DNA of 64,000 nt from Lingula anatina (Eukaryota; Animalia; Brachiopoda). Below the pieces are notes generated by a model that was given only the letters and a program-made list of their open reading frames with translations, had not been told where the DNA came from and did no database searches. The DNA is taken from the NCBI GenBank assembly GCA_051362555.1, contig CM120647.1:18080651-18144650 (forward strand), read 5' to 3'. Of the stretch, positions 1-31,857 are shown in pieces. Position numbers and translations under genes: made by a program. Position 1 is the stretch's first letter, and the number at the start of each line of letters is the position of its first letter.

Positions 1-917
1 TAAAATTTCCGTTTAATTATAAGGCACTACAAAACTCAAAATCCATTTCTATGGCAACTTCGTTACCCGCACGTCTGTACCTTTACACTGACACTGGTAG
101 AATGCTTGTAAATATGTCTGAACTGGACATCAGCGCGCACAGTTTCAGCGGAGAACGAAAGATGCAGCTTTTGGCAAAGGGCAACTGAGTTTGCATATTT
201 CCGGAAAAAAATGAAAAAGATCACGGCATTATTTACAGGGCAAGATAAAGAATTAAACTGTGGAAATTGTTACGAAAAAAAATAAATTTAATATTTTTTT
301 CTTATTTAAAATGAAAATAATATAATTTCGGTCTCCTTTCTCTATGTGCGCTGTTGGCTAAGTTTGTACTGTATATGTTGCTATTTAAGTATTATCACGT
401 GGAATGTACAACTTGCTCTGATTTCTGCTTCAGCGGACTTCGCACCTGTGCGCCTAGTCAGATTATTACAGTGTATATCAATGTTGAGAATAGTGTACTG
501 AATATTATTATTCCTTTTATGAAAGTTAATGTTATAGATGTATGTGTGTACTTATCAAGAGGTTAGAATTGTACTAGTAGAAATTGGAAGCACGTGAAAA
601 AGTCCGTTCGAGTATTTATCAGAGTGGCTTGCTTATTCTCCAGTATTTTTGTATGATGTTTTATACTTTGCACGTAAATTTGGTATTTAAAGACGAAATA
701 ACAATGTATTTTCATTCCAAATTTAAAACATTGTAAAATGTATATATTTTTTTTTTTATTGTTTTTTAAAAGTTAAATAGAAATACTTTTGTCAGAAATA
801 TTCATCTTCTGAATATACAAAACGAGTCTTTGGCACATTAGTACAAAGAAAAAAATCCCGAAACCTTTCGTTTCGAAAGGGTGACATATATAAGAGTTTG
901 ATTAGTGTCCTCTTCAG

Positions 918-3900
918 TTCCAGAGATACAGCCACGTGACTACAAGCTCTACAGCAAAAGTCACATTCCGGGGATTCTCAACACTTATTTGGAGAATCGG
1001 ACCAATCTTGACCCACTTTCGTACGTCGCGGCAGCAAGCGTGCTGCCCATGCGCACTAACAACTACGTGGTAGAAGACCTCATTGATTGGTCCAGCGTTC
1101 CCAATGATCCCATTTTCCAGTTGGTGTTCCCACAACCAGGTTAGTCAGTTGACAGTATTTTGCAATACAATTATTATTATTATTATTATATTTTACATGT
1201 ACATTCTCACGTGAAACACGTCTCTTACGAAATTCTATGCATTTAGTACAGAAGCAGTGTTCCTTTAAAACCGCACCAAAACAGCGTCAGTTACCCTCAA
1301 ATCTCGGAGTAATTCCTCGTTTCAGGTATGCTGTCGGAGGAGGGTTTGGCGGACGTGCGCGACCTTCTACGACGTGGAGTGACCCGTACCGTTCTGAGAG
1401 AAACAGTGGAAAAACTAAGGTATGGTTGCAGCTGGCCCACGAACGCTTTCCAGCTTTGTGACGTCATACTAGAATCGGTGACCAAATACAGCACCCTTAA
1501 AAGTTACGCGTTGTTAAACAAGGTACAGAAAAAAAAAGACGTTTTGAAGGTTCTTCATGTACAGCGCAGGCCCTACTGAATTTTTTCTCAACATTGCAGG
1601 GCGGAGCTTAATCCACACCCAGCCAATCAGAAAACTCTAAACGTACCACGAGTCAATGGTCAAGAGCTTCCCGGCATGCAACACAAGTATCGGGAGACGG
1701 TCCTGTTCTTCCCTTCTGAAGGCCAGTTTTGCCAGGTAGGGATATATACAGCGGCTGAGTCAAGATTCGTCCCGTAAATACAGTGCATTTAGTACTAGTC
1801 TATATGAGGTGCTCCTCAATATCGTTTGAAACCATTCTCATGATTGCGAGTGTACACGTTATTTATGTTTAAAGACTTTGTCAAAAAAGTCTAAGACGTA
1901 AACATCGAAGACTGCTAACGACAGTTAATATCCCCATTTTAGTAGATTGTCAGTAAAAAGCATAATTCTTTGTCCTTGCAGAATAATTTATACCTTCTAA
2001 CCAAAAAGAAGGCCTCTGTTGCCGGCAATGAGGCCAATTTTATCGTGACCTCTTTGAAGGGACTGGCTTGTCTACTGAGCTGTACTCACTAGCATTCTGA
2101 GCCGTAGCAATAGTCCGAAGGTTCAATAGTCCGAAGGTTCATTGGTCCGAATATTCACTATAGAACCTTCGGACCAATGAACCCTTGATTAAAAAATCGA
2201 TGAAAATGTTACCACTTTTCGGACCAATGAACCTTCGGACCAATGAACCTTCGGACTATCGAGACGCCCCCATTAACAGCTGTTAACTATGAAAGTCGTA
2301 AGCCTGTGACCACTTTCTATAGATCTGTGAACAGAAATGTCTCAGCCCGGTTTGGATGGCGGCGTTGTGAACACATTACAACGTGACGTCAACATTACGT
2401 CATGACGTCACATGTATGCCGTCAGTTTGTCAGTACATGTGCAGGGTACTAATAAGGCTAATTTAATGTAATTTCAGGCTTTTTGCACTTACTGTTTCCG
2501 TTGGGCCCAGTTTACATCTGTGGGCAGTCAACAACAGTTTCAGAGCACTGACGGGGACCTTCTCCGGGCATACCTGCGCACGAACAAGTGTGTCAGCGAT
2601 GTGTTGTTCACTGGTAAGCTGTGATAGATGTTTTGGGAGAGAGGGAAAGAGGGAGAATCAATGGCGTGAACACCTTTATGCTTTTCCAAGAACGTGCATA
2701 TGCGCAAGTACACGTAGGTTCTACAAGTACATTGTATACCCGACGTGCTTGCCATCGGTGCCCAAATTTCAAGAAGGGCCTAGTCAATTATCAACCCAGT
2801 GTTTCATTTCATATACACCACTGATGGTAGAAATATCTGCACATTAATATTATAACTAAACATTCGTTAAACACACTTATGTCTGATTTCTGGCTTAATC
2901 CAGGTGGCGATCCCATGGTAATGACGGCTCGTCAATGGCAGCGGTACCTTCTTCCCCTGATCAATGACCCGACACTGGACCACGTGGCCACTGTCCGCAT
3001 TGGCACCAAGTCCATCGGCTACTGGCCATACCGGTACATCTCGGATTCGGACTCCGACGACATTCTGTGGTTCGTATTGACCTTTAAGCCAGGCCCGTGG
3101 GCAGTTGGGTTCGGGGTGGGGTCGAAAGAGAAGACCTGAAAAGGTCTAAGTCAAATTTCAATCTAGGGTCTGTACCATTTTTCAAGCTTGAGGAGGGGGA
3201 AGAAAAGCCCACTTTACCGAAAAAAGAAACCCCCTTTAAAATTGCTGGCTACAAACTTATAATGCTGTTATCACCTCACGATATTTTGACCACAAAAGAC
3301 AACGAGAAGACGTTACCAGTAACCTTTTACGTTTTTTTTTTCGCAAAACAGAAAAAAATTAGCTAATAAAACATGTACCACCACTAAACTAATTAATTAA
3401 TTAATAAAGGAAGCGATTTTGTCATTCCTTTTAAACGAAAAATATTGTCTTTTGCGCGTTTCAGGTTGTTAGAAAGAGTGGTGAAATCGGGTAAGCATCT
3501 GGCCATCATGAGTCACTTCTCGCACCCGCGAGAGTTGAGCACTCCTGTCGCCCAGGAAGCCATTAGACGTATCCAGATGACGGGCGCGACTATCCGCGCA
3601 CAGGCGCCACTGATCAGACACGTGAACGACAACCCGCAGACGTGGGCGGATATGTGGCGGTTGCAAGTAAGACTTGGAATCATCCCCTACTACATGTTCG
3701 TGGAACGAGACACGGGCGCAAAACATTACTTCGAGGTTCCGTTAGCGGAGGCTGTGAAGATCTACCAAGAGGCCTCGTCGAGCATCTCCGGTATCGGGAG
3801 AACGGTTAGGGGACCGTCGATGTCAGCGTCCCCCGGGAAATTGCACGTGCTGGGTACCGCCACGCTCCAAGGTGAGAAGGTCTTCGTGCTCAAGTTCTTA

Positions 3901-4107
3901 CAAGGGCGGAATCCTGCCTGGACGGAGAACCCATTTTTTGCTCAGTACGATCCCAAGGCAAGCTGGCTCAGCGACCTCAGACCGGCCTTCGGGGAAAAGA
4001 AGTTTTTCTTTGAAGACGAACTTGAAGAGATAGAGCGCGCCGAGACGTCATCAGGGGCGCTGTACCCGTACCCTGAGGGTATGGAATACAAAAACATGAT
4101 GCTATGA
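918..4107 (+). CDS. kamA: KamA-family radical SAM protein (lysine 2,3-aminomutase-like), spliced; exons 918-1139, 1326-1419, 1600-1735, 2478-2613, 2904-3069, 3465-4107; first coding exon not resolved (candidate ORF 51-189, ATG at 51 or 114)
   Basis: Six exons join in phase through GT-AG introns to give about 465 aa with no stops. Motifs: LNPHPANQ..NVP, GMQHKYRETVLFFP, CQ|AFCTYCFRWAQF (CxxxCxxC), VLFTG|GDP, RIGTK, HFSHPREL, QAPLIRHVND, PYYMFVERDTG, GPSMSASPGK (candidate PLP lysine). Confidence 0.9.
2108..2262. repeat. Small foldback/MITE-like element made of inverted 16-bp subrepeats
   Basis: Left arm repeats (aatag/attgg)tccgaaggttc. Right arm carries the reverse complement tcggaccaatgaacct. 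Lies in the intron that splits the radical SAM motif. Confidence 0.65.
3090..3252. mobile_element. Degenerate copy of the caggcccgtagc MITE family (see 42519-42685)
   Basis: Shares caggcccgt..., tcgaaaga, aaaaaagaaaccccctt and aaattgctggctac with the complete copy. Confidence 0.6.
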
Positions 4108-5801: not shown

Positions 5802-7133
5802 ACCTCTGCTATCTCCCTGTGTTCTTCAGAGGAGTATCTAACTGCTTCTGTGGCATGAGCTCCACCGTCATCAACCTCTGGACCATTGATGTATGGGATC
5901 AGACTCTATAACAAATTTTACAGGAATATAATCAGATGGCAATAGACCAGGCCAAGAAAAAAAACAACTTTCCCCTGAACTTTGCCTTCACTGTAAATAT
6001 TATTTCTTAATTTTTAATTGTTTTTTCAACAAAAATGAAAAATAGGAGAAAAAGAGGGAAATTCAAATCCCAGCTGGAGCTTTGTTCTAGAATCATTCTC
6101 AAGCTAGTAGATGAAATGAAAGAAATTAATTTAAATGTCAAGATTTTCACTTATGTCTATCTGATATGCCTCTGATTAAATGTCCACTGTTCATTTTAAA
6201 TTAATTTCTTTTTATTTCCCTTTTATATCTCGACTCCTGACCTACCGAATAATCCCAGTTTACATGTGCACTTACTTCTGTCTGTTTGGTATCAAAATGC
6301 TGACATATTTCCTGGACTTTGTTATACATTAGGCGTAGTTTCTTAAATGAGACCTGTATGGCTTTCATGTGGTCCTCCAACTTGGCCTTCTTATCCTGGT
6401 ACATCTGTACACTGTTCCCTGCTGTATTGTTAGGAAGCTGCGGAACACAATTAGCACAGTAATTATTCGCAAATTATAAACATTTCATTTATTGTATTTT
6501 TTTATTTCAAGAGCTTCGGTACTCATACCCAGGTTTTACTGAAACTGAGGCAAAAGTAAGCACACCACCTGTGCTATATTTTAGGGCAATACTTGCAACA
6601 ATGAAAGCCAAGATTTGTAGTTTCTGTGAGCTCACATCATTTAAAATGCACTGTGTCTGACTCTAAGAGAGACCATGAACTGCCAGAATTGTGTATCTAC
6701 CAAATGCACTTTTGGTTTGGGAGTCAAACCCACATGAACACAATATGAAATCACAGACTCTAGGGGACATGTGTCCTAAAAGACCATATAGGATTTTGGG
6801 CCAATTTCTTAAAGTACCAACCTTCAATTGGTGAAGAACTTGAAATATTTCCAGTGTTTTCTGCACTATTTCTTGCACTGTTTCCTGGCCTGTCTTGCAC
6901 AGTGAGGCTGTGTTTACGTCTTTAGTTGGAGAGGCCAGCTGTGTCTGACCTTGACCTCCCCATGACCCCTGACCTTGATGCAGAGATCCCTGGTGGCTGT
7001 CACTGAACTGTTGTTGTAATGATGGTGGTGGTTGCTGATGCATCGCTGTGCCACCTGGTTGATTGTACTGTTGCTGCTGTTGTTGCCGTTGCTGTTGATA
7101 CTGGTACTGCTGATATGGCCCTGGGTTTGCCAT
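5058..7133 (-). CDS. MED30: Mediator subunit 30; exons 7133-6822, 6437-6276, 5905-5804, 5156-5058
   Basis: Spliced translation: VNTASLCKTGQETVQEIVQKTLEIFQVLHQLK|LPNNT..KLEDHMKAIQVSFKKLRLMYNKV..E|SLIPY..|QIRNKNRHLKEIIDQLRTVIWEINTMAAMRKT*. Matches the MED30 pattern, with a Q-rich N-terminal extension. Confidence 0.93.
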
Positions 7134-7724
7134 TGTGGTATTCTTAAAGCAAAGAAAACAAATGTGGCATACTGCTTCATTTATCCATTTATTTATTATT
7201 ATTCATTTTTTAAATCAGTATACACTAATATACACAGCTGTACCAGTTCAGGCATCAGTATGACAAAAATGAATAAACGTATCAAAATAGGTCTCCATAT
7301 ATTGATTGCTATATATAACCGGGCCCCATATATAAATTTCACACACGCAGATTTCCCCTAAAATACATGTGGCACGCCCCATGTGGGATACTGATTAATT
7401 TTCATTAAAACCAACGACAGTACTGTACATGCGTACGTACGACAACTATAAATTACTGCCGTTTTATTACAGACTTCACAGGCAATAAAAACATATAGTT
7501 TGATCGAGGAACGCAGCTAAAAAAGTGGACATTTATCACTGAATGCAATACATTTTTTAGGTTTCTTAAACATATGCATCAGGTCACTGTGCTGGCACTG
7601 ATGCACCGTCTTTGAATCTGGTCATTTTAAATGTAAAGTTAAAATTCAACAGAAATTATCTAGACGAAGAGAAATGCTTTCAGCTGAGAACAATGTCAAG
7701 TGATGTAGCACTTTTTATGCTTAC

Positions 7725-8090
7725 CGCACTGAGCCGGCTCTTGGGCGATATAGCAGGCCGATCAACTTATGCTAGGAGAAATAACTACCGGGCACACACA
7801 AAGCACTTCAAACCATGGGCGCCGCCATTTTTATTCTGGCATTGAGGCTTGAACGAGAATTTGCAAATCCTCAAATGTTTTAGGGAAATACCTTGAACAA
7901 TGTCTATATGTTAAATATCATGATTTATTTGGTTCAAAATATATTCTTTTTTGTCTTAAGAACCGCCTTTATTACAGATATAGTCCCCCGTCTCTGGTGT
8001 CCTTGTGCGAGAAAAAACGAGATTTGAAGGAAACCACGCCATTTGCCTATGATCTCAAGGTTAGAGGTTCGAGTCCCAGCAAAGCGTAAA
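7725..8090. promoter_or_regulatory. Probable bidirectional promoter between MED30 (-) and GTF3C2 (+)
   Basis: Head-to-head genes and locally CpG-rich sequence. YY1-like GCCGCCATTTT at 7821-7831 and CGCCATTT at ~8037. Candidate MED30 5'UTR donor (cttac on +) at 7720-7724. Confidence 0.6.
8066..8077 (+). promoter_or_regulatory. Isolated RNA polymerase III B-box (GGTTCGAGTCCC) in a tRNA-3'-half-like context
   Basis: Exact match to the GGTTCGANYCC consensus. No A-box or acceptor stem visible. Lies about 360 bp upstream of the GTF3C2 ATG. Confidence 0.7.
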
Positions 8091-8438
8091 GTTACACGGT
8101 TAGTAAAATTTACTGTTCATCATGTATCATTTTAATCTTTTTGGCAAGAATCGTTCCATTTAATGTCGTATTCATGTGTGAATGATATTGATACGATAAA
8201 TAAGGCACAGGGAATGTTGAACTGTTGAGTGTTGGGAAATCGTACATTTTAAATATAATACTGCCCATGGAGTAATAATTAAAGTACAATTGCAGTGTGT
8301 TACATCAGTTATTAGCGCTGACACCACCTCTGCAGCTGACATATTGTTCAACACCAAGCATTTGCAAATTGAATTTAATTATAGGACTAGTCTGGTCAAG
8401 TGAACCAGAGCAGAGTGGCTATAAAGAAGTGCCTTGGC

Positions 8439-10697
8439 ATGGAAGGCAGCAGTAAACCTGGAGAGAAGGGTCAGACAACTCTAACGGAGGGGGACCATGA
8501 CCGAGTTGAGGTTTGTATCACAAGGTGCCCTATTGAGTGAAACCCGACTCAATGCAGCTCCTACAACACCACAGACTTTTAATTATAAATTAATGAAATA
8601 CTAGTAAGCCGTCATTAATAATTAATTGTAATTTTGATTATTAAAATAATTAAAATTAATTAATTTATTTATTGGTGTCTGTTAATCCCAGGTGGAGAAC
8701 CAGGTGAGTGATGCCCCCCTCCTCCAGACAAGGCGTACTGGGCAACTGACCCAAGTCAAGTCCTCCCCTCCCACCAAACCTGGACCAAGGTGGGAGAAGG
8801 GGGCCCATCATAAAGAGATGAAGAAAATGAATGGTAAGTTGATTGTTTTGATATTTTGTCTTTTTTTCTGAATAATAGCAATAATCAGGGATGAGATTTT
8901 TTTGGGGAGCCAAAATATCATCAGTCTTCTCTAGGCGGCTCCCTGGACCCTTCATCATATTTTCCAATTTTTTCACAAAAGGCAGTTTCATAATAAAAGA
9001 ATAGATAATTGGACTTAAAAGATTTGGAAAATGGTTTTTGATTAAGATTTTGTGAAAATGAAAAAGATTATACAAAATGTGGTAAGAGAACTAGATCAGG
9101 TGAAATTTTGTCTTCTGGTTTGACAAAGAAAAATTTGAGAAATCTCCAAAAATTGAAAAGACAAATCCTGTTTCTTGCACAACAGGTGATCAAAGCCCTA
9201 CCACAGTAGCTAAAACCAAGGGGGAAACTGACTCTGAAAGTCAACCACATAAAACAAAACCAAAACATGCCCTTGTAAGCTCACCAGAAGCAGTAAGGGG
9301 AAAAGTGCCAAAGAAACGAGGCAGACCACCAAAGAACAGAACAGTAGAGGGCACTCCCCACCAAGATGAGACCACCCCTGACTCTCAGAAATGTTTAAAT
9401 GGATCAGGAGCTGGCAGATTAAGTGGCACAGGTAGTTCTTCACTCATTGAAAGTGGCAGTCCAAGTAATAGTGGAAATGTTGAAGTGCATGGCAGCAAAA
9501 GGAGGAGGGTTCAAAACAGAAATTCAAGTTCTTATCCTGAAGATACAAAGAACACAACTCAAAGTTTTTCTGAAAGTAAGGAATCTCAAGAAGACAGTAG
9601 CATGTGTGAAGCTTTTGATGAGAAAGGAGCAGAACATGAGGGATTCGAAAAACAAAGAGATTCAAGTGAGAGAAAGCGACGCGGAAGATCTTCAAAGAAG
9701 TCTCCCCTTAAGACAACTTCCTCATCTGATGACAGAAATGCATCTGACAATCCAGTATTGGAAAATAGCCAGTTAACAAAGTTTTTAGATTCAGTGCATG
9801 AAAATTCTGACAATTTGACTTTGTCTGGGAGGAAACGGAAGAGAGGACGTCCCAGGGGTGAAACGGGTGCTAGCACTGCTCAAAGGGAAGTGGAAATACA
9901 AAGAAGTCCTACTGATTCAAAGGTAGAGGAGAATGCAGATCAGACATCTGTGGCTAAAATTGACAATACACATGATGAAGATACTCCCACTACACCTGTT
10001 ATGAAAAGGAAAAAGGGACGGCCCAGGAAAATTCAACCTGATAATTCTGTGATTGACAGCTCTGTTATTGATACTTCAAATGAAGGGGTGGGTTTAAACG
10101 AAAAAAGTGAGGATGTGAGTATAAGGGGGAGGGTTAGGAAAATAGGAGGCAGCACTATCATAGGACAAGACAATAAGCAGGAGTTAAACATTGATGACTT
10201 GGAGGATCATATGGATGAAGATGAAGATGGGATAGATGGGGACACTTTAGAAATGCAAACGTCTACCCCTAGGGGGAGGGGCAGAGGAAGGGGGCGGGGC
10301 AGTGGGAGGGGGCGGGGCAGAGGAAGGGGGCGGGGCAGAGGGAGGGGCAGTAAGCAGGTGTTAAACATTGCTGGTTCAGAGGATGATGTGGATAAAGATG
10401 AAGATGAGAGAGATGGGGACACTTTAGAAATGCAAACATCTACCCCCAGGGGGAGGGGCAGAGGAAGGGGGCGGGGCAGAGGGAGGGGCAAGGGGTGTGG
10501 TATTCCTTTTCCTGGAAATCAGTCTCCAATATCTGACACCAGTGGAAGGGGAAGGGGGAGGGGACGGGGAAGAGGCAGAGGAAGAGGAGCTACGCCTAAG
10601 AAAGATGAATCTGAAGTAAGTATATTCATTTAGTGCAGTACTAGCATTCATAAGGAAAAAAATAATTTTTATACCTTATTCTATTTTTCTTCTTACG

Positions 10698-10729
<32 letters not shown>

Positions 10730-13700
10730 GAGAGTGATGATATCTTACCTTTCTGTCAAATATTTTCACTGTGGTGATTGTTGGAATTATTTGTAAACAA
10801 TGCATATAGGAATAGGAATTTTGTAGTTCAGTTGTACATTTTATTGGTGCTTCGGGTATTGCTGCAGTTTGAAATAATTAGCAACACATGTTGGCATTAG
10901 ACTTCTAGTGTACTAATAATAAGATTTAAAGATAAATTGTATAAATAACTCACTTAATGCTTAGTGTCTCTAGAGATTATTGTTGGGAGATTCATTTTGC
11001 ATAAAGAAAATAGAGCTTTGTATGAAGCATTAGTTAAAACTAGTATTATGCCTGTTTTGGATTTGTAGTTTGAGAAGAATTGTCCCCACTGTAAGGAGGA
11101 ATTTGCAGTGCTGCAGAATTTGAAACGCCATTTGATGGTTGAACATGCGGCCTTGGTAATGAATCCGTTTTGTTTTGCAGTTTCCTACTTGAATTTGAAC
11201 AAAATCTTTGAGTTACCCAATAATTTTGTAGTATCCTACAAACCTTTACAAACTTTGTCAAAGTGCTCAGTATACCAAGGATATTTAAGTTTGGAAGAAT
11301 ATTATTAATATTTTTTTTTTAATATTCATCATTAAACATCTTATACTAGTTTGTAGATAATTTAATTTGTCAATTGATGCATGATATTTTCACAGCATGT
11401 AATGTAATTTGAATTTGAGTTTATTGTTTTTTATTTGAGATTTTTTAAAGGTTTTTTATTACCCTTTTCAGTGGACCCCTGAAAACCCTAGCGGTGACAC
11501 GGACAGACCTTCACGGCGGAAGATCTTTAAAACTCTCAGGAAGATACATTGCCCACAGTGCAAAAAGGAATTTAAAGTGTTTCCGTACTTTTGCTTTCAT
11601 TTGGACTGGTGTGGCAGGGAGGTAAGAGCTATTTCATTAGAAAGAAGACTTTGTTTGTTATGACAATTTTAAATTTGTGATTGAATCTTTAAAGTAAAAG
11701 GTTAAATCTGTCATTTTTCATGCATGAAGTGAGTATGTGCCTGGGTTGAAGTGAAGTTCTTGTTTGATTTTTCTTGAAAAATGCAATTTTTATTTGGGTA
11801 AATCTTTCTAGGAGGTCTGTTATAATTAAGATATAACAAAATGTAATGTCATGTTTTATATTTTTATACATGTATGATGGAACATGACAACTTAAATAAA
11901 AGCATGGCTTTTGTCTACCTTAAAGGTATTCCTCAGTCTTTGTGATTTCAAATCAGTCAAAGTTGGTGCCAAAATTCAAATCAAATGTGTTTTCAGAACG
12001 AGATGGCGACATGCGACATATGCGGCAAGCAGTACAAAGCAATGTGGTTGCAGGCACATACGCGTGAGGCGCACACGGCCAAGAAGCCCAAACATGGCAG
12101 CGTGGTGACAGAAGAAGAACCAGAGGGGGTAGCTGTCATGGAGGACGAAGGGAAATTAGGACGAGGAAATAAAAGAAAGGCTGCTTCTAAGTTAGTAGAT
12201 ATTAGGTTATGAAAATTTAAGTAAAGCTGCCTCTAAGTGAAGGTGAAAATATAAAAAGTGACTGCCTCCAGGCAATTAGAAAAAAAGTTGTGAAAATGTA
12301 AAAAAGACTGCTTCCAGGCAAGAAGAAAAAAGTTGTTAAAATGAAAAAGTAAGAAGAAAATTAGGTTGAAAAAATAAGAAATAAGTTGCTTCAAGTAAGT
12401 AATTAAATAAAAAGAAGGCTGCCTTAAAGTGAATAAAAATTAGGATGTGATAATAAAAGAAAGGCTGCCTCTAAGTGAGAAGAAAATAAGGTTAAGAAAA
12501 TATTTGAATAAGCTTCATGTTTTTTATTAAATTTCAGGGCATTGACCAATCTCCACAACTTGGCTGCTGATGTAGAAGATGCTTTTCAACAGACAGTCAG
12601 CGAGATGTCTTTATTGAAGGTTTGTATAGGCACAGTCAGAATTAAACCTACTTTGACTTTAATCAATTTGTGGACTTTATTTATTCCACCTTTTACGGCC
12701 TGAATTTTGTCTACCTGCAAGATGTCATAATGGCAGATTTGTACTGAATCACAGTTAAATTCCTGCCTATTCCTGTCTCACCACACCTTCTCTTGACTAA
12801 CCTACTCTGGCATAAATTCCTAGCTATTAAATCTTACCAATATTTGTATCTAATATCTGATTTTATTGACACCTAATGTTCCCCTAATTTTGTCTCATAC
12901 AAGTAACTTAAATCAATAAATTCATCCAAAGACTTGATGCATGATATCAACAACGTAATTATTTTATATCCCTTAGTAAAAATAAAATCCTGAATGCCAT
13001 TTATGAATTTTCCATGTAACATATTAGTTTTACCAGTATTTTATAGAAGAAGGCATTATTTATAATGATTATCATTAAGATGTAACATAGTGTAATTTCA
13101 TAATAATATATATACTTTTTTGCTTTTTCAGAAATTGTTCCAGGCCCCTCCATTGGCAGAAGTGACATCAGAGTTGTTGAGAAAATGGAAAGAAACCACT
13201 GGGCAGTTGGACTGTCCATTCAAGGTTAGTCTTTCAGCCACTGACCAAGCCCTGGTTCACAAAAAAATTAAGTCACTTTCCTGGCTTAGTAGACTAGGAT
13301 TGCCATGAGAGTGCTGTTACACTGCCCCTGATAGGTTAAGATGTGCCCATGTGATCATGTAGCCTTGGTTATTAAGTTCTTAGCCATGGAACCTGACTGG
13401 TAAGCCAGAAATCATGAGTTTACATTATGCAATTTCTGTTTCTATATCCTCGTAATTTTTAACAATGTCTCATCCTGTTTCAGAGTGAAGGTTGTGCTGC
13501 CACCTATACTACAATTCCTGGCATGAGGGCACATTTCGTGAACTGCCAATACAATGGCCTGGAAAGCCACAAGTATGTTTGTTTGGTGTGTAAGAAGGAA
13601 TTCAGCTCCCAGGCATCTGTCATTTATCACATAAAAGGGAACCATGAATGGGTAAGGCTGCACTCGGAACCTGTTTGGTTTAAATTGTTTTATAAAGGCT

Positions 13701-16700
13701 TGTTGCTGAAAGTGGGCATTTTGTTTGTGCTTAGATTTCATGGCCGTGGTGTTGTGGAGGATGTGAGGATTATTGTCACCATATCTTTGACCCCATTCCC
13801 ATAGATTTTAGATCGATCTATTCCTGTGGGGAGTCTCACTAGATTACTGTCAGCTTGGCTGGCTTAAGCGTCTGTCCCGCCTACTAAAAGCTGTAAGGGG
13901 GTAATTAACTATGGTGCGCGCACGGCTGACTGCAATTTAGCGTGAACCCCCTAGGAGTTAGGTCGATCTAAATCAAAATCTCTGGATTGATCTAAATCTC
14001 TGGGAATGCACCCTTTGTTCTCTTTATACAATAGATATTTGTGGGACTTTAGGGCAGAATGTCCTCAGAAGACCATAAAATCTTGTGTAAATCATACTAA
14101 GACTAAATACCTGTAACTTGATTGTGACTGTGTCCCAAAGGCGTGGAAATTATTTAGTAATATGTAAATTGTTGTGAAGTGTTAACATTATGTCATAGAA
14201 TTTTTGAATGCAAAGTTGTGATAATTTCTTGCTTTATCTTAATTTTTGTTTTATTTTTTTCAGGAAAGTAAGAAAAAGAAAAAGACCAAGAAAATGGTAA
14301 GTTTTTTTTCAGAGTAGATCAAATACTGGATGGTAAAAAGATACTATCCCATACACATGTAAGTGAATAGAAATTGAGATATCAAGCTTTAATGCTCATA
14401 ATTAGTCCATACTCACTCTTGTTATGACAAACTTCTTTTAGCCAAAAACTTGGGTGATTTAAGCTAGATCAGAAACATAAGCTAACAAGGTGAAAAATTG
14501 AAGTGATTTACATTTTCCTTTGTGAAATTAATGTATTTTTAGTATTTGGCTTTAAAGAAGTGAACATACAAGAGAGTATCCAGTAAGTAAAGTTCTCCAG
14601 CCCCTAAGTGCGCTTTGGACTTATTCCAGCCTTAACTTGCAGGCAGCAGATGACATGTCAAAATAAGAACCATTCTTCTCCGTAAAATTGGAATAGGTTT
14701 CACATTTGGATAGGATGATTTAACATTCAGGATTGAGTCGAGTTTGTGAAATTGTTCAGTGTTTAAACAAAGTCCGACATTGTTCCAGTGTGAAGACTTA
14801 GACTCTATAGCAGACGACATGTCAGATTACGAACCAAACCAGTCGGAAGCAGAAGAGGAAGAAGAAGATGACGGTTCAAGCGGAGTTTCGGAACACAGTA
14901 TAGGTAAATCAGAAATTGGGAGGAGGGGTGTGTGATTCCATTAGTTGGACATAATTGTCTCTCAATTTATTTTCATTTTATTTTATTTTTTAAATTTTAT
15001 TTTATTTCCTTTTAGTTTAGTTTAGTTTGATTTGGTTTAGTTTAGTTTAGTTTAGTTTAGTTTAGTTTAGTTTAGTTTAGTTTAGTTTAGTTTAGTTTAG
15101 TTTAGTTTAGTTTAGTTTAGTTTAGTTTAGTTTAGTTTAGTTTTCATTTTTGCCTACTTTTGATGTAAATAAACAAAAAGTATAAACAGGCCTACAATTT
15201 ACAATATTTGTCATAAAACATCAAAGTTGAATTTCCTTCTATTTTCCCTGTGTTGCAGCCTCAGAGCCAGAGACAGGCAGCAGGTACTTGAGAGGAGGAG
15301 GAGAGAGACCAATCAGAGGAAGGCGGTGTGACGAGAGAGAGGCCTTCCAATGGGGGCTGGAATTCCATCAGAAATACGACCAAGACTCGGCATTTGTGGA
15401 CTGGGTGCCAAGGAGTGACATGTGGACTGAACTCAGTGCTGAGTAAGTAATTTCAGATGGGGCAGTAGCCATATCTGTATGGGTGCTAGCCATATCCATG
15501 TGGGTGTTAGCCATATCCATGTGGGTAGTAGCCATATAGAAGTGGGTAATGGCCTAATCCGTGCAGGTGATAGCTATATCCATGTGGGTTTTATACAAAG
15601 TCATGTGGGTTGAAGCCAAATTTGTATGAGCTGAAGCCAAAGTCACTCAGACTGTGACAAAATTCTAATCATGATTTTAACACTGCAATTCATATTGGTT
15701 GACAGAATCACATTCATGGCTGTAGTCAATTCATATCACCTTTTAAATGATATCCTATTTCTAATCCAGAGAAGCTGCAGAATATCTTCCAAAGACTGAT
15801 ACCAGCCCCCAGTTTAAGGTGGTCCAGTCCTCAAAGCAACGAGCTACAGATCCTCAGACACTGTCGAAGTTTTCTGCCTGCTCCACTGGTGAGCCTTACA
15901 GATGTTTAATTATTTAAATTGTCATAAAAGTGTTGATTTTTAGATGTTATTGTGGTTTGTACTTTTTTTGGTACCAGTATATATTTTTAATGTTTGTTTT
16001 TCTATCACAGTTATTTATGTCTCATAATATCTAGTACAAATCTGCATGTTTCAGAAAATTCCTTCAGTTTTTTTGTTGGGGGTCCAGTGAAGTCATTATC
16101 ATGGTGTCCTGTGCCAATCAAGATATCAACCTATCAGATGCTGGCTGTTAGTTGCCATAGAGACATGGACTTTGTCAGTCCTGTGAATGGGGTCTACTCT
16201 GACAAAGGATGTGTTCAGATTTGGGACTGTGGAAATTTGGAAAAGAAACAGTAAGTTAAATATTGCATATAAATCTTCAGGAACCATCTAGGGCCTTCTG
16301 TTTGACCAGTTCTGATTGTTTTCAAATATAATTGTAAGAAGTTGAAAATAAATATTAAAAGATCTTTTTGAGAAGATATATATTTTAAAATGATTTTTAA
16401 GTGCTACACGCATATTATGAATCAACACATGCTCATGTCAGAAAGCATGTTTTTTGTTAGTGAAACAATCTAAAAATTGTTTGAAGAAGTAAGGCACTGA
16501 AAAACAGTAGGTGAATTTTTTAAAATTTGAGAATAATTTTATCCATGTTTCTCACCCTCCAGAGTTAGGCTACCCAAGCTGTCCCTAGGTATTGCACATG
16601 AATATGGCACCGTCACCAGCCTAAAGTGGTGTCCAACTGGTGCTTTTATTTCCTCGGATAAGGTATGGGTTGAGGTTATTTATTTTAATGATTAAAATAA

Positions 16701-17993
16701 GCAGAAGAAAACATTTTTTAATTTAAAAAAGGAACACAACTCTGTTTATCTTGTTAAATTTAGTTTGTGTCTCCTTTGGTATAAATACAGCACCAATAGC
16801 CACTATTATTATTTTTATTTATATATTTTATTTTATTTTTTGGAAGTGAAAGCAGTAACAGCAATTCTTTTCACTCAGCATTTCTATAACTATTATTAAG
16901 TTTTTATCTATTAAAAAAGCACTTTTTTTCAGGTCTGTGAGGAAGGAGTTTTACCAAGATTGGGTCTTTTAGCTCTTCTCTGTACAAATGGACTCATTTA
17001 TATTCTAAGGTATGATAGCTTGGAATAGTGATGACCTTTGCAATGTACATTTCCTAATGTTTGTAGGCAAGAATAGAAAAAGTACATCCAAGTTTTTACT
17101 AATGAACTGTTACTTGAAATAGGTATTGTATTCTTCGATTTTTCTTTTCTAGTAAAGTATTTTAATTACATTTTTATACAAAATAAGTTATGATAACTTT
17201 AATTATTTTCCCAGCATTCCTCATCCAGGAAGTCTATCAGAGGTCAAAGGTGACTCTGAGAAAGGGGCCAAAGAAGACTCTCAGAGAGATGTCAAAGTCT
17301 TTCAAGCAAAGCCAACTGTGATATTAGATGCCTTTTACAAAGGTAGGAGGAATACAGGAGATAATGGAGTTTGACCAATTGTTTGGGCCACAACTAGCTG
17401 AGGCAAATGTATCTCAACAGAATTATATGTTTGCGTGTTTGGTTTTTAGCAGGAAAAATAACAGCCTCTGTGGTAACTGTATTCTTTCTCATCACCTAAA
17501 AAGTTAAACTTGGCACATGAATATAACTTGGCATGGTATTGATACTGAGCTCTTTTATATCATTTTTGTAATCACTTGAAAACAGACATATACTGTAACA
17601 GTATCACTGGTACTTTAAGCTAGCTGGGGTCATTACAGCATTAGATATGGTGTCAAACTTGTTAAAAGTTTTGTGTCTGTTTTTGTTTTTGGAATTTGTA
17701 CAATATGGAATAGGGTCTCACTTCACTTAACTAAAGAAACCATTTTTTTCCTTAATCAGTGACTTTTTTAAACATAACAGTACATAACACTGTCATATGA
17801 AAATATGTGAATGTCCTTCCATTTCAGCAGACTGTGATACTGAGAGGATCCAGTGTATATGTATGGACTGGTCCTATAGTGATCTCTCTCTTCTGGCAGC
17901 TGGTCTTACTGATGGTGGGTAGGGTGCTGAATTTCCCCCTTTTTTATTAATCATTAGGTACTTAAATTGCCTATTTCTGTCATGAAAAGAGGC

Positions 17994-18032
<39 letters not shown>

Positions 18033-21000
18033 TGGATACGTCTAGAAATGTTATTGCTGCTAAGATTCCTTAATAAAAACTGAGACAGGTATATTTTGAA
18101 ATGAAGGAAAAAATACCAAAATGAATAAGATAACAGGTACTCATACATATTACCCTTTTCTGCTCATGTAAAGTAATTCCAGTCAGCAATGATTGACTTT
18201 AAGTTAGTTATAAGTGTTTAGTTTGAGATTAGAATAAATATGTTGCAGGATCCTTAGCCATATGGAGTCTCACCACCGCCAGCTCTCTCCTGAAAAATGA
18301 AAATATAGATGGCGTTCAGGTGCTTTACCCCTATCAAGTCTTCAACGTCCATAACTGTTTAGTTCGTTCCGTCACCTGGTGCCCTTTTTCATCCAATCAC
18401 ATTGCCACATCTGGAATGGAACGCAGCGTGAAAATTTGGGACCTGCGTGATCCAGAGAGTCCTTATAATCATAGTTGTACACCTTTGATGAAATTTGGGA
18501 ATATTAATTTCGTTAAGTGGCCAAAGTACTGGTGTGGACTTTACCTGGCAGCTGATGATTTGGCCTGGTAAGTGTCAAAGGGTGTGGTGCATTTCATTTT
18601 TATGGTACACTGTACATATTTAAGGTAGTAAATCTATTACATGTAACAAAAATTATGAGCTCAAGCAGCAAGGTTTTGTTACTTTAACACTTGTAATTTA
18701 TTTAATCTCCCTGATACATTACTTGTGGGTAAACTGTTTATAGTTGATGTGAAAAGTGTAGTAAATTTAGATTAATTGTAAGACAAAGTTCATTTTTTAA
18801 ATATCTTTGTTGCAAGTTTTATCCTATTTATTTTAATAATAAAAATTTTATTAATTTTGGATAAAGTGTTGTTTTTGATACTGTAACACACATCATCACT
18901 GGGAATAATGATATTCGATAATATCAGATGTTCATATGTCACATGATCCATCACATGGCCCATCACATGACCCATCACATGACCCATGCTTTCGACTTCT
19001 ATTTCAGTTTTGGTCGTAACAGTACCAGGTATACAGAGTGTGGTTACTTTGGTTATACACCCAAGACCATCCTGCCCCATAAGTCATTTACCTGGGTAGG
19101 TATTTGTATACAGGGGTAGCGCTAACACTCACCAGTTTAGCCAAATGCTAAAACTTATTTAAATTGGCTAAAGAAAAAGGGCTTGATTTGACTTGTTTTG
19201 TCAAATTATAACCATTTTGATAACAAATTGACAAAAAAAGTGGCGATTTGGCCAAGTGAAACAAATTGCTAGCGCTACCCCAGGTATATATTTATATATC
19301 ACATAGTGCTGTGCTGGGATTAGGATAAACTTACACATAAACCAAAGCCAGTCCAATTAACGTCATAAGGAAAACTGAGTGTGTAAAATAAACCAGAAAT
19401 TCAAAACTTAATTCAAAAAAAAAAAAAAAAAAATGAGAGACAGCTTATTTGGTGCCTTTTAGTGTAAAAAAAGTATGACTCAACTTTTTTGCTATATGGT
19501 TTGTTTCTCTCATGTCATGTCATCTTGTGGAAAACCAGCAGATTTTCAGAAAAATTGTTTGTAATTGTTGATACGTAACTCCATTTGCCCGCCAGAGTGT
19601 CATCATTATAAGAAAAATGTTGCTAATTTTCAAAAAGAAAATATGAAAAGAGGTGACGACCATTCTCTCTCAGTGTTGCAGAAACTTGTGCGAGAATGTA
19701 GGCATTATCAAAATGGCAGTGTCATTGTATTTTGATTTTCAGCACTGTACATGACCAAATGGCAGTCTTGATGTTTAATGTATTATATACTGATTTTGAG
19801 CGCTGTACATTTTTAAAATGGCAGTCTTGGCATATAATAATATAGCTTGATTTTTAGCACTGTATGTTCTCAATGTGGAAGTCTTGGTATTTAATGTATA
19901 TTTTGATTTTCACTACAGTTTGTGTGGGCATTCTCAAAAAGGCAATCTTACACCCCATTTCCATAGATTTTTAGATCGATCTATCCCTGTGGGGAGTCTC
20001 ACTAGATTACTGTCAGCTTGGCCGGATTAAGCATCTGTCCTGCCTAATAAAAGCTGTAAGGGTTTAATTAACTATGGTGCCCGCTCGGCTGACTGCAATT
20101 TAGCGTGAACCCCCAGGGAGTTAGGTCTATCTAAATCTTAATCTTTAGATCGATCTAAATCTCTGGGAAAGCACCCGTGGTGATGTATTGTATATTTTAA
20201 TTTTCAGCACTGTACATTCTCAGACTATCTTAACATGCTGGTGGACTGCGACTCGGCCGGGGAGGTGATGGCATGTGTCCAGCCTAGCCTCATGATGGTG
20301 AACAGGGACACCAAAACCTTTGCAAGGAGACGCTTTGTAAGTTGATAGGGATAGAGAACCAGAACACCGTCTTTGCTTTTGTTGTTCAGTTGCACATATT
20401 TCAGTTGCACAGAGAGGTGGTGGTTGAATAATTGTGTATGTTGAACAGTCTTGTAACACATAGCTATAACACCTATACAATAGGATTTCTTTAGCCAGTA
20501 AATGAGAAATTTCTTTTTTATTGTTTTATCAGTTTTCATTTACAAGCTTTAAAATGATTTCCGGCTTACTCTGTGCTCATAAACTGCTGCATATGTTTAA
20601 TTCATCCCAGTGCATTTTATTGCACATTTTGTCTTCAGAAAATCACTATTAGTTCCGCATTTCTTCTTTCAGAATACATACTGTTACATCATATGAAGTT
20701 AGTTTTGATAAATTGATAATCTTGGTTGATAACATTTCAGGGCATATATCATGTTGACCTGGAGACCCTTAAACATCCAGAGAACCAGGGGCAAGATCCT
20801 TCCTCCTCATCTCAACCTAGAGACAGCAGCAAACACGGGAAGTCAGTCAATGAAAATGGAGAAGAGCTTGAGGAAGCAACCAATCAAGAGGCAACAGAAA
20901 TAGCAACAGCCAATAAGAAAAGCAACCAGGCTACAACAGCCAATAAGACAGCAGTAGATGCTAACAAATCCAAGGCTGTGCCAGTGACTGAAAGTTACAG

Positions 21001-29096: not shown

Positions 29097-29215
29097 GTTT
29101 ATACACGTTGATCGTCACCTTCATCGCAATTAGGTCAAGGCCGTCACAACTATCGCATTTAAGCACAGGCTTCAAACAACTGCGCATGCACGAAAAGTGC
29201 GCTGTTTGAAATATA

Positions 29216-30525
29216 TGGAACGCCATCCACGCAAAAAATCAGACTTGCAATTTAATAGCCAAATAACATTCTAACAGCCTACAAGAAATCTAACAGTGGT
29301 CAAAATAATCTAATAGCCAACTCATAAAATTTAACAGTGTTAAAAAATCTAATAGCCACTCATAAAATTTAACAGCGTTAAAAAATCTTACAGCCAACTT
29401 ATAATCTTACAGCCAACTTCTCAAAACAGCCAAGTGAGCATTTTACGCTAGAGGTCACTGCTGTCACGGGTCTATCCGTGGACAGCGCGTAAAGTGATGA
29501 CGTACGTCTTTAAATATGAATGTAACTCCCTGTGCTTGTAATATATTCTCTTTTCTGTATATGAACATGTAACATAAAGATAAACTCCCAAGTACGCATA
29601 TGTTTGTCCTAATTGAATATTTTATGTGGTTTTGATATTAATCTGGAATGAATTTAGCGTGAAAATGTAAATAAGCAAATTAAGCCTCAGTATACATAGA
29701 ATTATTTCCCCATTGTTTTGGTCCCTTTACCATATTTTTATTTTATAATAAAAATCTTTCCAACAAAGCGTTTGTTTTATCTTGTTCTATATATTAAATC
29801 ATTTATAAATATATGTTTCTAAAAGAATCATTTTAAATAGAACGTTCACTGTCATCCCATCGGTGATTGTAATGCGATGAACGTTGGACTTGTATTACCA
29901 TCGTAGTAAAACATGAGACTAGTGACCATGCATTGGGTGAAATTAGGTCACAGTTTTGATTCATGCATATGCAGATTACGTCCAGTTGCGTCCTATGATA
30001 GGACAATGCGTCCTAGGCACCGCCATGTTTTACCCTACGCGATGTAACCTTGCATTACTTTGTGCGGGTGTTTGAAACTGAACACCGTTTTCTTGTGCAT
30101 CTTTCGGGAAGGAACTCCACGTATTCCGGTGGCAAAATACTCTTTTATATTAGTTCTGATTCGACCTTCCATCCACGTAATGTGGATGTTAAACAACATC
30201 TCTCCATAGAAGTAGAGATCTCTCAGACTTCAGATGACGTCATCACTTTACGCGCCGTCCACGGATAGACCCGTGACAGCAGTGACCTCTAGCGTTAGAT
30301 GCTGACTTGGCTGTTTTGAGAAGTTGGCTGTAAGATTATGAGTTGGCTGTAAGATTTTTTAACGCTGTTAAATTTTATGAGTTGGCTATTAGATTTTTTA
30401 TCACTGTTAAATTTTATGAGTTGGCTATTAGATTATTTTGACCACTGTTAGATTTCTTGTAGGCTGTTAGAATGTCATTTGGCTATTAAATTGCAAGTCT
30501 GATTTTTTGCGTGGATGGCGTTCCA
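29216..30525. mobile_element. Foldback-type non-autonomous DNA transposon with ~290-bp TIRs and TA TSD
   Basis: 29214-~29503 is the reverse complement of ~30237-30527. Arms contain short internal subrepeats (aatctaatagccaactcataaaatttaacag). Flanked by TA on both sides. Confidence 0.85.
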
Positions 30526-31857
30526 TAGTAATAAACAAGTTGGTGAAATTGACAAAGCCTGCCGGTGTTTACCGTCTGGTTGATTATATTTCATTTGCTC
30601 TCTGGTGTCTTTTTGAAAGTTTATATTAGAAATGTTTTATTGATTTTATGTTTTAAAAAGTAAATCCATCGGAATTCCTTAGAATAACATTTATTTTAGC
30701 TTCATTACAAGGGGATCCCCATTGTATTTATAGTGTTATATGTGGCCCCAATTGGGATTTTTCACCCCTCCCCCACTCTTGATACATAAAATGCGCCATG
30801 TGCCAGATTGAAAATGACGTTGCAAAATGTATTTAAAATCGTAGGAAGGTTAATTGCAGATAATGCTGCGAGGACATTCTTGTTCCAGGGCGAACTCGGC
30901 CAATATAAATTTTTTAACTTCGTCTCCCGGTTTTGCAGCGCCAGTTCTAATTTTTGAAAGCGAGGCAATGGAACCAAACAATACGACGCAATTTGTAATC
31001 TCGTAAAAATTGCTATTTTTCAATAAAGACTATAGCATGGAGTAAATTGAAATGCGACTCTTTTATTATCATGATCTTTAATAATCATTAATATAAAATG
31101 TACGATTGAAGAAGTTCTTGTTCCCGGCCTTTTTATTAACTTAATTGATTTTTTAAAGTATTTGGAGATTAAAAACAAAAAAGTTGTCTGGTTTCATATC
31201 GAGGCACTCCGTTTCGTTCGTGTGCTTCGCATTTACGAAATAGGCCACATTGATTATCCACACCAAGATGTTAGGCTACATTGTACGTTCATGCAGGTAC
31301 ATGAACACACATCCAAGTGTACCGGTACATGTACATGCAAACAAACGTTCAATATTGTTCTAATGCATTATCTGTTCAATATGAAGATTTAAAAAAAATA
31401 GAATACACCCAAAAAAGGGGAAAAAATGAAGAAAAAGGACCTTCAAGGAACGCGATGAACGTACGTACGCGTACACACATGTATACTGCCATATAGTAGG
31501 CCTACATGTATGTCTTTCAAACTAGATAAACTGGCGAATAGCGGGGGCCCCAAATTTAATACATAACAGGCGTATCCCCAATACTAGAAGTACTGTTATA
31601 TGTAAAGATAAAATCTGGAATATGTAAAGATAAAATGTTTCATTACTCCATGACAGTGCATGTATAGGTGGAATGAATAATTAAGCGTTTATACTTCGTG
31701 TGTGAGGACATGCAGGTAGCTAAAAGCACACAAATAAAGCAAACTCTGGTTAAGAAAATATCATTTTATTTCTTTTTAAACAAAGTATGTACCAGCAGTT
31801 AGTAAACGTTTAAAATACTTGTAATATTTCTGAAATCCTTTTTAAATAGATACTAAT

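What the first reader, a model, noticed from the sequence alone, without database searches (positions are those of the whole stretch)
8045..8080. Lone TFIIIC B-box at the 5' end of the TFIIIC subunit gene GTF3C2: possible conserved autoregulation
Seen: a perfect B-box (GGTTCGAGTCCC, 8066-8077) with no A-box or full tRNA, in the promoter/5' region of GTF3C2. Established: in budding yeast the extra-TFIIIC site ETC6 is a B-box in the promoter of TFC6, the GTF3C2 counterpart, and mediates TFIIIC negative feedback on that gene. Inference: this animal may use the same feedback circuit, and the site could also insulate or co-regulate the divergent MED30.
Basis: partly seen in the sequence, partly recalled or inferred. 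Interest (0 to 1): 0.75.

Follow-up and report, generated by a model that had tools for sequence, protein, structure and literature searches.

The report
TFIIIC site inside its own gene
In the lamp shell Lingula, the gene for one subunit of the tRNA transcription factor TFIIIC carries a perfect match to that factor's binding sequence in its first exon, which would likely let the factor limit its own supply as it does in yeast, but binding and conservation in other animals are untested.

Summary
The motif is real: GGTTCGAGTCC(C) at 8066-8077 is the only perfect B-box in 64 kb, with no A-box, tRNA or T-arm stem. The genes are GTF3C2 (+) and MED30 (-) of Lingula anatina, head to head, with start regions about 200 bp apart. 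RNA reads place the box inside non-coding exon 1 of GTF3C2, 0-35 nt after the read starts, not upstream. The region is single-copy in a whole-genome run, so it is not a young SINE head. Chance near one given start site is about 1e-4 to 5e-4, but the scan searched many windows. Conservation is not shown: the only relative covered is 5% diverged (no power); two distant animal loci with partial 5' coverage lack the box; human GTF3C2 mRNA does not rise after GTF3C5 knockdown; the yeast ETC 3' extension is absent. Best reading (0.42): TFIIIC binds here and dampens its own subunit gene, like yeast ETC6 but probably arisen independently. This scan reported similar lone B-boxes before, at fungal TFC3 (unchecked notes).

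The parts
8066..8076 (+). Canonical B-box, same sense as GTF3C2, 22 nt before the exon 1 splice donor
   Evidence: covered by all 25 X13 reads laid (8067-8084), no variant listed
8033..8098 (+). Non-coding exon 1 of GTF3C2; 5' ends of reads ramp from 8033 to about 8067; donor GT at 8099
   Evidence: joint 8097>8384 (cut +1) in 21 X12 and 2 X15 reads; depth ramp in X13
8056..8090 (+). Predicted tauB footprint (-10 to +14 around the box)
   Evidence: inferred from the 35 bp of DNA assigned in the human tauB structure, B-box at 65-75 of 55-89 (PMC11811891, passages)
8037..8044 (+). CGCCATTT, YY1/initiator-like element at the 5'-most read ends (motif label recalled)
   Evidence: longest reads begin near 8042 (X12) and 8043 (X18, from bin depths), and 8033
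8049..8403 (+). 22-codon upstream ORF, spliced across intron 1, spanning the box; present only in the longest leaders
8385..8510 (+). GTF3C2 exon 2 with predicted main ATG at 8439
8439..18567 (+). GTF3C2 coding exons as far as modelled (1247 aa, C-terminus not modelled): 3 AT-hook-like motifs, zinc fingers, WD40 domain. Joins up to 9186 are shown by RNA; later joins are predicted
7725..7837 (-). Non-coding exon 1 of MED30, divergent; 5'-most read reaches about 7837 at most
   Evidence: joint 7142>7725 in 4 of 4 RNA runs and bin depths
6276..7142 (-). MED30 exons 2-3 (ATG at 7133)

Best explanation
A perfect, single-copy B-box sits in non-coding exon 1 of Lingula GTF3C2, and TFIIIC likely binds it and would dampen transcription of its own tauB subunit, a predicted negative feedback loop like yeast ETC6-TFC6. 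Shown: the motif, its place 0-35 nt after the read starts, the lack of A-box and tRNA structure, single copy. Inferred: tauB binds a B-box alone with high affinity and would cover about 8056-8090, the stretch that TFIID and early Pol II also need (recalled core-promoter knowledge); without an A-box, Pol III would not be recruited; surplus TFIIIC would therefore occlude initiation or block early elongation, and scarce TFIIIC would release the gene. The site more likely arose independently than descended from the yeast site.
For: Strict box within 250 bp of one given start site: p about 1e-4 (window background) to 5e-4 (local CpG-rich background), 0.003 for any of six subunits. 0 strict boxes in 293,827 bp of other, partly redundant GTF3C2 loci. 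One unbroken 2055-nt contig and no second contig from a whole 469 M-letter genomic run at 80% likeness. The affected gene is the orthologue class of the yeast autoregulated gene (PMC3334521; TFIIIC110 as WD40 tauB subunit). Same layout as ETC6: divergent intergene, and box in the sense of the gene (inferred from the table and YDR362C). No variant listed in the box in X6, X10, X12, X13, X15, which is weak.
Against: No binding data. No informative conservation: X10 differs at 7 of 138 nt, so an unchanged 11-mer has p 0.56, and 2 of the 7 differences are unlisted; organism B (X11) did not align. Of 49 related loci only 2 reach the start codon region, and neither has a canonical box. The yeast ETC extension is met at 0 of 3 invariant positions (by hand). 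Human GTF3C2 mRNA changes +5% after a 74% GTF3C5 knockdown (n=2, a tauA subunit). The finding was selected from some 250,000 windows, so one hit at p 1e-4 to 1e-3 per promoter can be chance. The loose box GTTCGANNC has p 0.035 per promoter.
Confidence: 0.42

Rival explanations
1. Chance motif in a CpG-rich promoter, picked out by a genome-wide look; unbound, or bound without selected consequence.
For: Local CpG o/e is 1.0 against 0.48 for the window, which raises the odds fivefold. Absent from 2 of 2 distant loci with partial 5' coverage. No derepression in human. Large look-elsewhere effect.
Against: p 5e-4 even with local background; 0 strict boxes in 294 kb of related loci; it falls on the very subunit known to be autoregulated in yeast.
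Confidence: 0.28
2. TFIIIC binds, but acts as a boundary or architectural anchor, or as a positive factor, for the MED30/GTF3C2 bidirectional promoter rather than as a brake.
For: Six of eight yeast ETC sites lie between divergent genes and ETC sites can act as boundaries (PMC3395662); mouse ETCs carry cohesin (PMC3245943). MED30 starts about 230 bp away.
Against: The box is not between the two start regions but downstream of the GTF3C2 start, a poor place to separate the genes.
Confidence: 0.13
3. Neutral relic of an old tRNA-derived insertion (SINE, Helenus LTR or tRNA fragment) of which only the box is still recognisable.
For: Lingula has tRNA-derived repeats: LinSINE1 (PMC4824008) and three Helenus families (PMC10886601); the Helenus-2_LAn LTR holds the identical 12-mer.
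Against: Flanks match Helenus-2_LAn at 6 of 21 upstream and 5 of 14 downstream positions (by eye); 2 of 5 T-stem pairs; no A-box; no Rfam hit; no second contig laid. A decayed copy would hardly keep a perfect box while losing all else. The LinSINE1 consensus was not seen.
Confidence: 0.12
4. The bases are shaped by Pol II core-promoter or leader-RNA needs (downstream promoter element, uORF), and the B-box match is incidental.
For: The box lies where downstream core elements lie; a DPE-like AGTTA falls at +28 to +32 from a possible start at 8063 (consensus recalled); a uORF spans the box.
Against: The box itself is not in DPE register with any YA start; such elements do not demand 10 fixed bases.
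Confidence: 0.05

Closest known systems
ETC6 in the TFC6 promoter of Saccharomyces cerevisiae (Kleinschmidt et al. 2011; original not readable, known here from PMC3334521 and passages of PMC4228148 and PMC3395662)
   Same: Lone B-box, no tRNA, at the 5' end of the WD40 tauB subunit gene; divergent gene pair; box inferred to be in the sense of the gene.
   Different: Animal host; box inside transcribed exon 1, whereas TFIIIC covers -150 to -90 at TFC6; no 10-base ETC extension; binding and twofold repression are shown in yeast and untested here.
Metazoan extra-TFIIIC sites (human, mouse, fly, C. elegans)
   Same: B-box without Pol III gene near a Pol II promoter, as reported for human, mouse and fly (summary in PMC6950938).
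   Different: Many are repeat-derived (Alu, CeRep3) or non-canonical; C. elegans sites have both boxes and avoid promoters. None of the passages read links one to a TFIIIC subunit gene.
tRNA-derived repeats of Lingula (Helenus-1 to -3_LAn, LinSINE1)
   Same: Identical 12-mer in Helenus-2_LAn LTR.
   Different: No A-box, no T-stem, unrelated flanks, single copy.

Membership tests
ETC site | B-box consensus | tested here: met
ETC site | No A-box and no Pol III gene around it | tested here: met
ETC site | Bound by TFIIIC without TFIIIB or Pol III in vivo | not testable with these tools
   needs ChIP or CUT&RUN
Yeast-type ETC (extended B-box) | 3' extension: G at 19 and GC at 22-23 of the 23-mer in 8 of 8 yeast sites | tested here: not met
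   by hand from the table: this site has A19, C22, G23; a GC lies one base early
Yeast-type ETC (extended B-box) | Conserved among related species | tested here: inconclusive
ETC6-type autoregulation | Site at the 5' end of the Tfc6/GTF3C2 gene | tested here: met
ETC6-type autoregulation | mRNA rises when binding is lost | not testable with these tools
   untestable in Lingula; the human proxy shows no rise
tRNA-derived SINE or Helenus LTR | A-box plus B-box in a tRNA-like head with T-stem | tested here: not met
tRNA-derived SINE or Helenus LTR | Multiple copies in the genome | tested here: not met
   1 contig laid from each of two whole genomic runs at 80% likeness; old, short, diverged copies would be missed
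LinSINE1 | Similarity to the consensus | not tested
   consensus not found in the 2 supplementary files searched; a third was not searchable

The most novel reading that the evidence does not exclude
TFIIIC sets its own level in animals too: lophotrochozoan GTF3C2 genes keep a B-box just inside the first exon, so that TFIIIC blocks Pol II on its own subunit gene. With yeast TFC6 and the fungal TFC3 cases, feedback on a tauB subunit gene would be a design that recurs across opisthokonts.
Probability: 0.2. Interest if true: 0.7.

Novelty: new variant of a known kind. Interest (0 to 1): 0.4.

Why it matters
How animal cells hold TFIIIC, and so Pol III capacity, at the right level is open; the commentary on the yeast work asks whether other cases of this autoregulation exist. 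A single, mutable 11-bp site in exon 1 makes the question directly testable and would give a defined function to a metazoan extra-TFIIIC site. As it stands it is one motif in one species, modelled on a known yeast circuit.

Tried and rejected
No whole genome is held, so no genome-wide BLAST or scan of the other five TFIIIC genes. tRNA or structured RNA: none. Protein word searches with two GTF3C2 exons found nothing, so no annotated Lingula GTF3C2 was retrieved. No RNA holder was listed in the run index; RNA evidence comes from raw reads that were laid. Organism B (X11) gave 0 contigs, which is no proof of absence. First alignment was too diverse for a locus scan; a closer one gave 49 loci, 47 of which do not reach the start codon region as far as I could map them. 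L005 has a box-like word with a mismatch at an invariant T in a CpG patch near 2940; not counted. Records behind the loci were not searchable. Kleinschmidt 2011 and Moqtaderi 2010 are not held. Eight paper searches listed no paper whose title or abstract start describes a B-box at an animal GTF3C2 gene; subscription papers are outside the library. The bases before the box reminded me of a tRNA variable region (recalled), but the Rfam scan and stem test did not support it.

Full report
Observation. GGTTCGAGTCCC is at 8066-8077 on the + strand. It is the only exact GGTTCGANTCC in 64 kb; four other sites have one mismatch. ARAGORN finds no tRNA, Rfam lists 3 matches at E up to 10 in 7200-9200, none a tRNA and none over the box. 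No strict A-box is present, and the five best loose matches have two mismatches. Only the two pairs inside the box itself of the five T-stem pairs can form, so the motif is not a tRNA arm.

Genes. Two minus-strand exons match Pfam Med30 and the protein is 99% identical to Lingula anatina MED30, which names the organism. On the plus strand, exon 16054-16251 hits only human GTF3C2 in the PDB sequences and exon 18242-18568 hits it collinearly among 241 WD40 matches. A library search with the first exon gave 163 hits. I looked up 20 of the 150 listed: 7 clusters carry a GTF3C2 name, the rest are unnamed or uncharacterised. A stop-free GT-AG chain of 19 coding exons from ATG 8439 aligns to amphioxus proteins of this group at E 1e-74. 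Joins beyond 9186 are predicted, not read from RNA.

Position. RNA reads from 4 runs (3 studies, 6-25% of each run read) show introns 8099-8384, 8511-8691 and 8834-9185 for GTF3C2 and 7143-7724 for MED30. The first intron is seen in 21 X12 and 2 X15 reads; X16 had no read in exon 1 and X18 about one. In X13, 25 reads cover exon 1, with 5' ends from 8033 to about 8067. The box is thus inside non-coding exon 1, 0-35 nt after the read starts and 22 nt before the donor. Illumina reads do not fix an exact start. MED30 reads reach about 7837, so the start regions are about 196 bp apart.

Chance. A strict box within 250 bp of one chosen start has p about 1e-4 with window background and 5e-4 with the local CpG-rich background; for any of six subunits 0.003. 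The loose GTTCGANNC gives 0.035 and 0.19. None of 293,827 bp of related, partly redundant loci holds a strict box. Against this, the finding was picked from a scan of some 250,000 windows, and I do not know how many TFIIIC promoters were seen.

Repeat test. Lingula has tRNA-derived repeats: LinSINE1 (PMC4824008, one passage; consensus not seen) and three Helenus families (PMC10886601, passages and supplement). Helenus-2_LAn contains the same 12-mer, but by eye the flanks agree at only 6 of 21 and 5 of 14 positions, and Helenus has the A-box and full T-stem that this site lacks. From a whole genomic run of 469 M letters, one 2055-nt contig spans 7950-8190 and no other is laid at 80% likeness. 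A young SINE head is excluded; an old relic is not.

Conservation. This is the weak point. Run X10 covers 8053-8190 with 7 differences; the 5 listed are outside the box and 2 are unlisted, probably near the ends. At 5% divergence an unchanged 11-mer has p 0.56. Organism B did not align. A metagenome scan gave 49 GTF3C2-related loci. Only L005 (6.6 kb before the ATG, first exon unmapped) and L002 (262 bp before the ATG) reach the start codon region, and neither has a canonical box. In human T47D cells, GTF3C5 knockdown (2142 and 1794 to 529 and 481) leaves GTF3C2 mRNA at 2202 and 2061 against 2042 and 2006 (PMC7014570, supplement rows). That is two replicates and a tauA subunit, so tauB binding may persist, but it gives no sign of feedback in human.

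Mechanism. In yeast, TFIIIC bound at ETC6 lowers TBP occupancy at TFC6, and loss of binding doubles the mRNA (PMC3334521, part 1 of 2 of the text; the original paper could not be read; passages of PMC4228148). [quoted passage not shown] Mapped here, tauB would cover about 8056-8090. From recalled core-promoter knowledge, TFIID and early Pol II need the same stretch. I therefore infer that surplus TFIIIC occludes initiation or blocks early elongation of GTF3C2, with no Pol III recruitment for lack of an A-box (0.42). Rivals are chance (0.28), a boundary or positive role (0.13), a repeat relic (0.12) and a Pol II element (0.05).

Comparison with known sites. It works like ETC6 in gene, divergent layout and inferred orientation. 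It is not a yeast-type ETC by sequence: all 8 yeast sites have G19 and GC at 22-23 of the extended box (PMC3395662, passages with table, aligned by hand) and this site has none of the three. It also lies inside the transcript. Whether it is an ETC site in the functional sense needs binding data. Passages of PMC6950938, PMC3245943, PMC13142402, PMC7014570 and PMC11343564 describe animal ETC sites or TFIIIC depletion without mentioning a site at a TFIIIC gene. Eight searches listed no such report; subscription papers and unseen supplements may hold one. Three unchecked notes of this scan describe lone B-boxes at fungal TFC3; I did not test them.

Verdict. A real, well-placed, single-copy B-box in exon 1 of a TFIIIC subunit gene. 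Feedback is the single best explanation but below even odds, and conservation is not shown. New variant of a known kind; interest 0.4.

Noticed in passing
window 11069-13651 (+); P0012, P0155: Lingula GTF3C2 has AT-hook-like motifs and zinc fingers before the WD40 domain. The amphioxus homologue scores above the Pfam cut-off for ZNF512_C2HC, the Lingula exon aligns to that region, and a piece annotated ZNF512-like shares a cluster with a piece annotated GTF3C2-like. Vertebrate ZNF512 may have split from an ancestral ZNF512-GTF3C2 gene (the two human genes are near each other, recalled). The 10 papers listed for both names did not address this in title or abstract start.
   Followed up: partly
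window 902-4104 (+): KamA-family radical SAM (lysine 2,3-aminomutase-like) gene, apparently in several exons, in an animal; the last exon scores E 7e-15 to TIGR00238, below the cut-off.
   Followed up: partly
window 7821-7831 and 8037-8044: CGCCATNTT, a YY1-like word (label recalled), lies at both start regions of the bidirectional promoter.
   Followed up: no
window 7596-7823: A few X12 reads of the opposite orientation to MED30 cover its exon 1 and intron 1: strand leakage or an antisense transcript.
   Followed up: no
window 6276-7750, run X18: A run under the same species label is mostly only 90-95% alike, with many fixed differences in MED30: possibly a cryptic species.
   Followed up: no
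window 32000-64000 (-): Several diverged tandem copies of a gene with EGF-like exons.
   Followed up: no
window 29214-30527: About 290-nt terminal inverted repeats, 97-99% complementary: a likely non-autonomous DNA transposon.
   Followed up: no
L016:2318, L017:2452, L022:6948 and 9253, L041:9335, L042:11152: SINE-like heads with A-box and B-box in or near GTF3C2-related genes of other animals.
   Followed up: no
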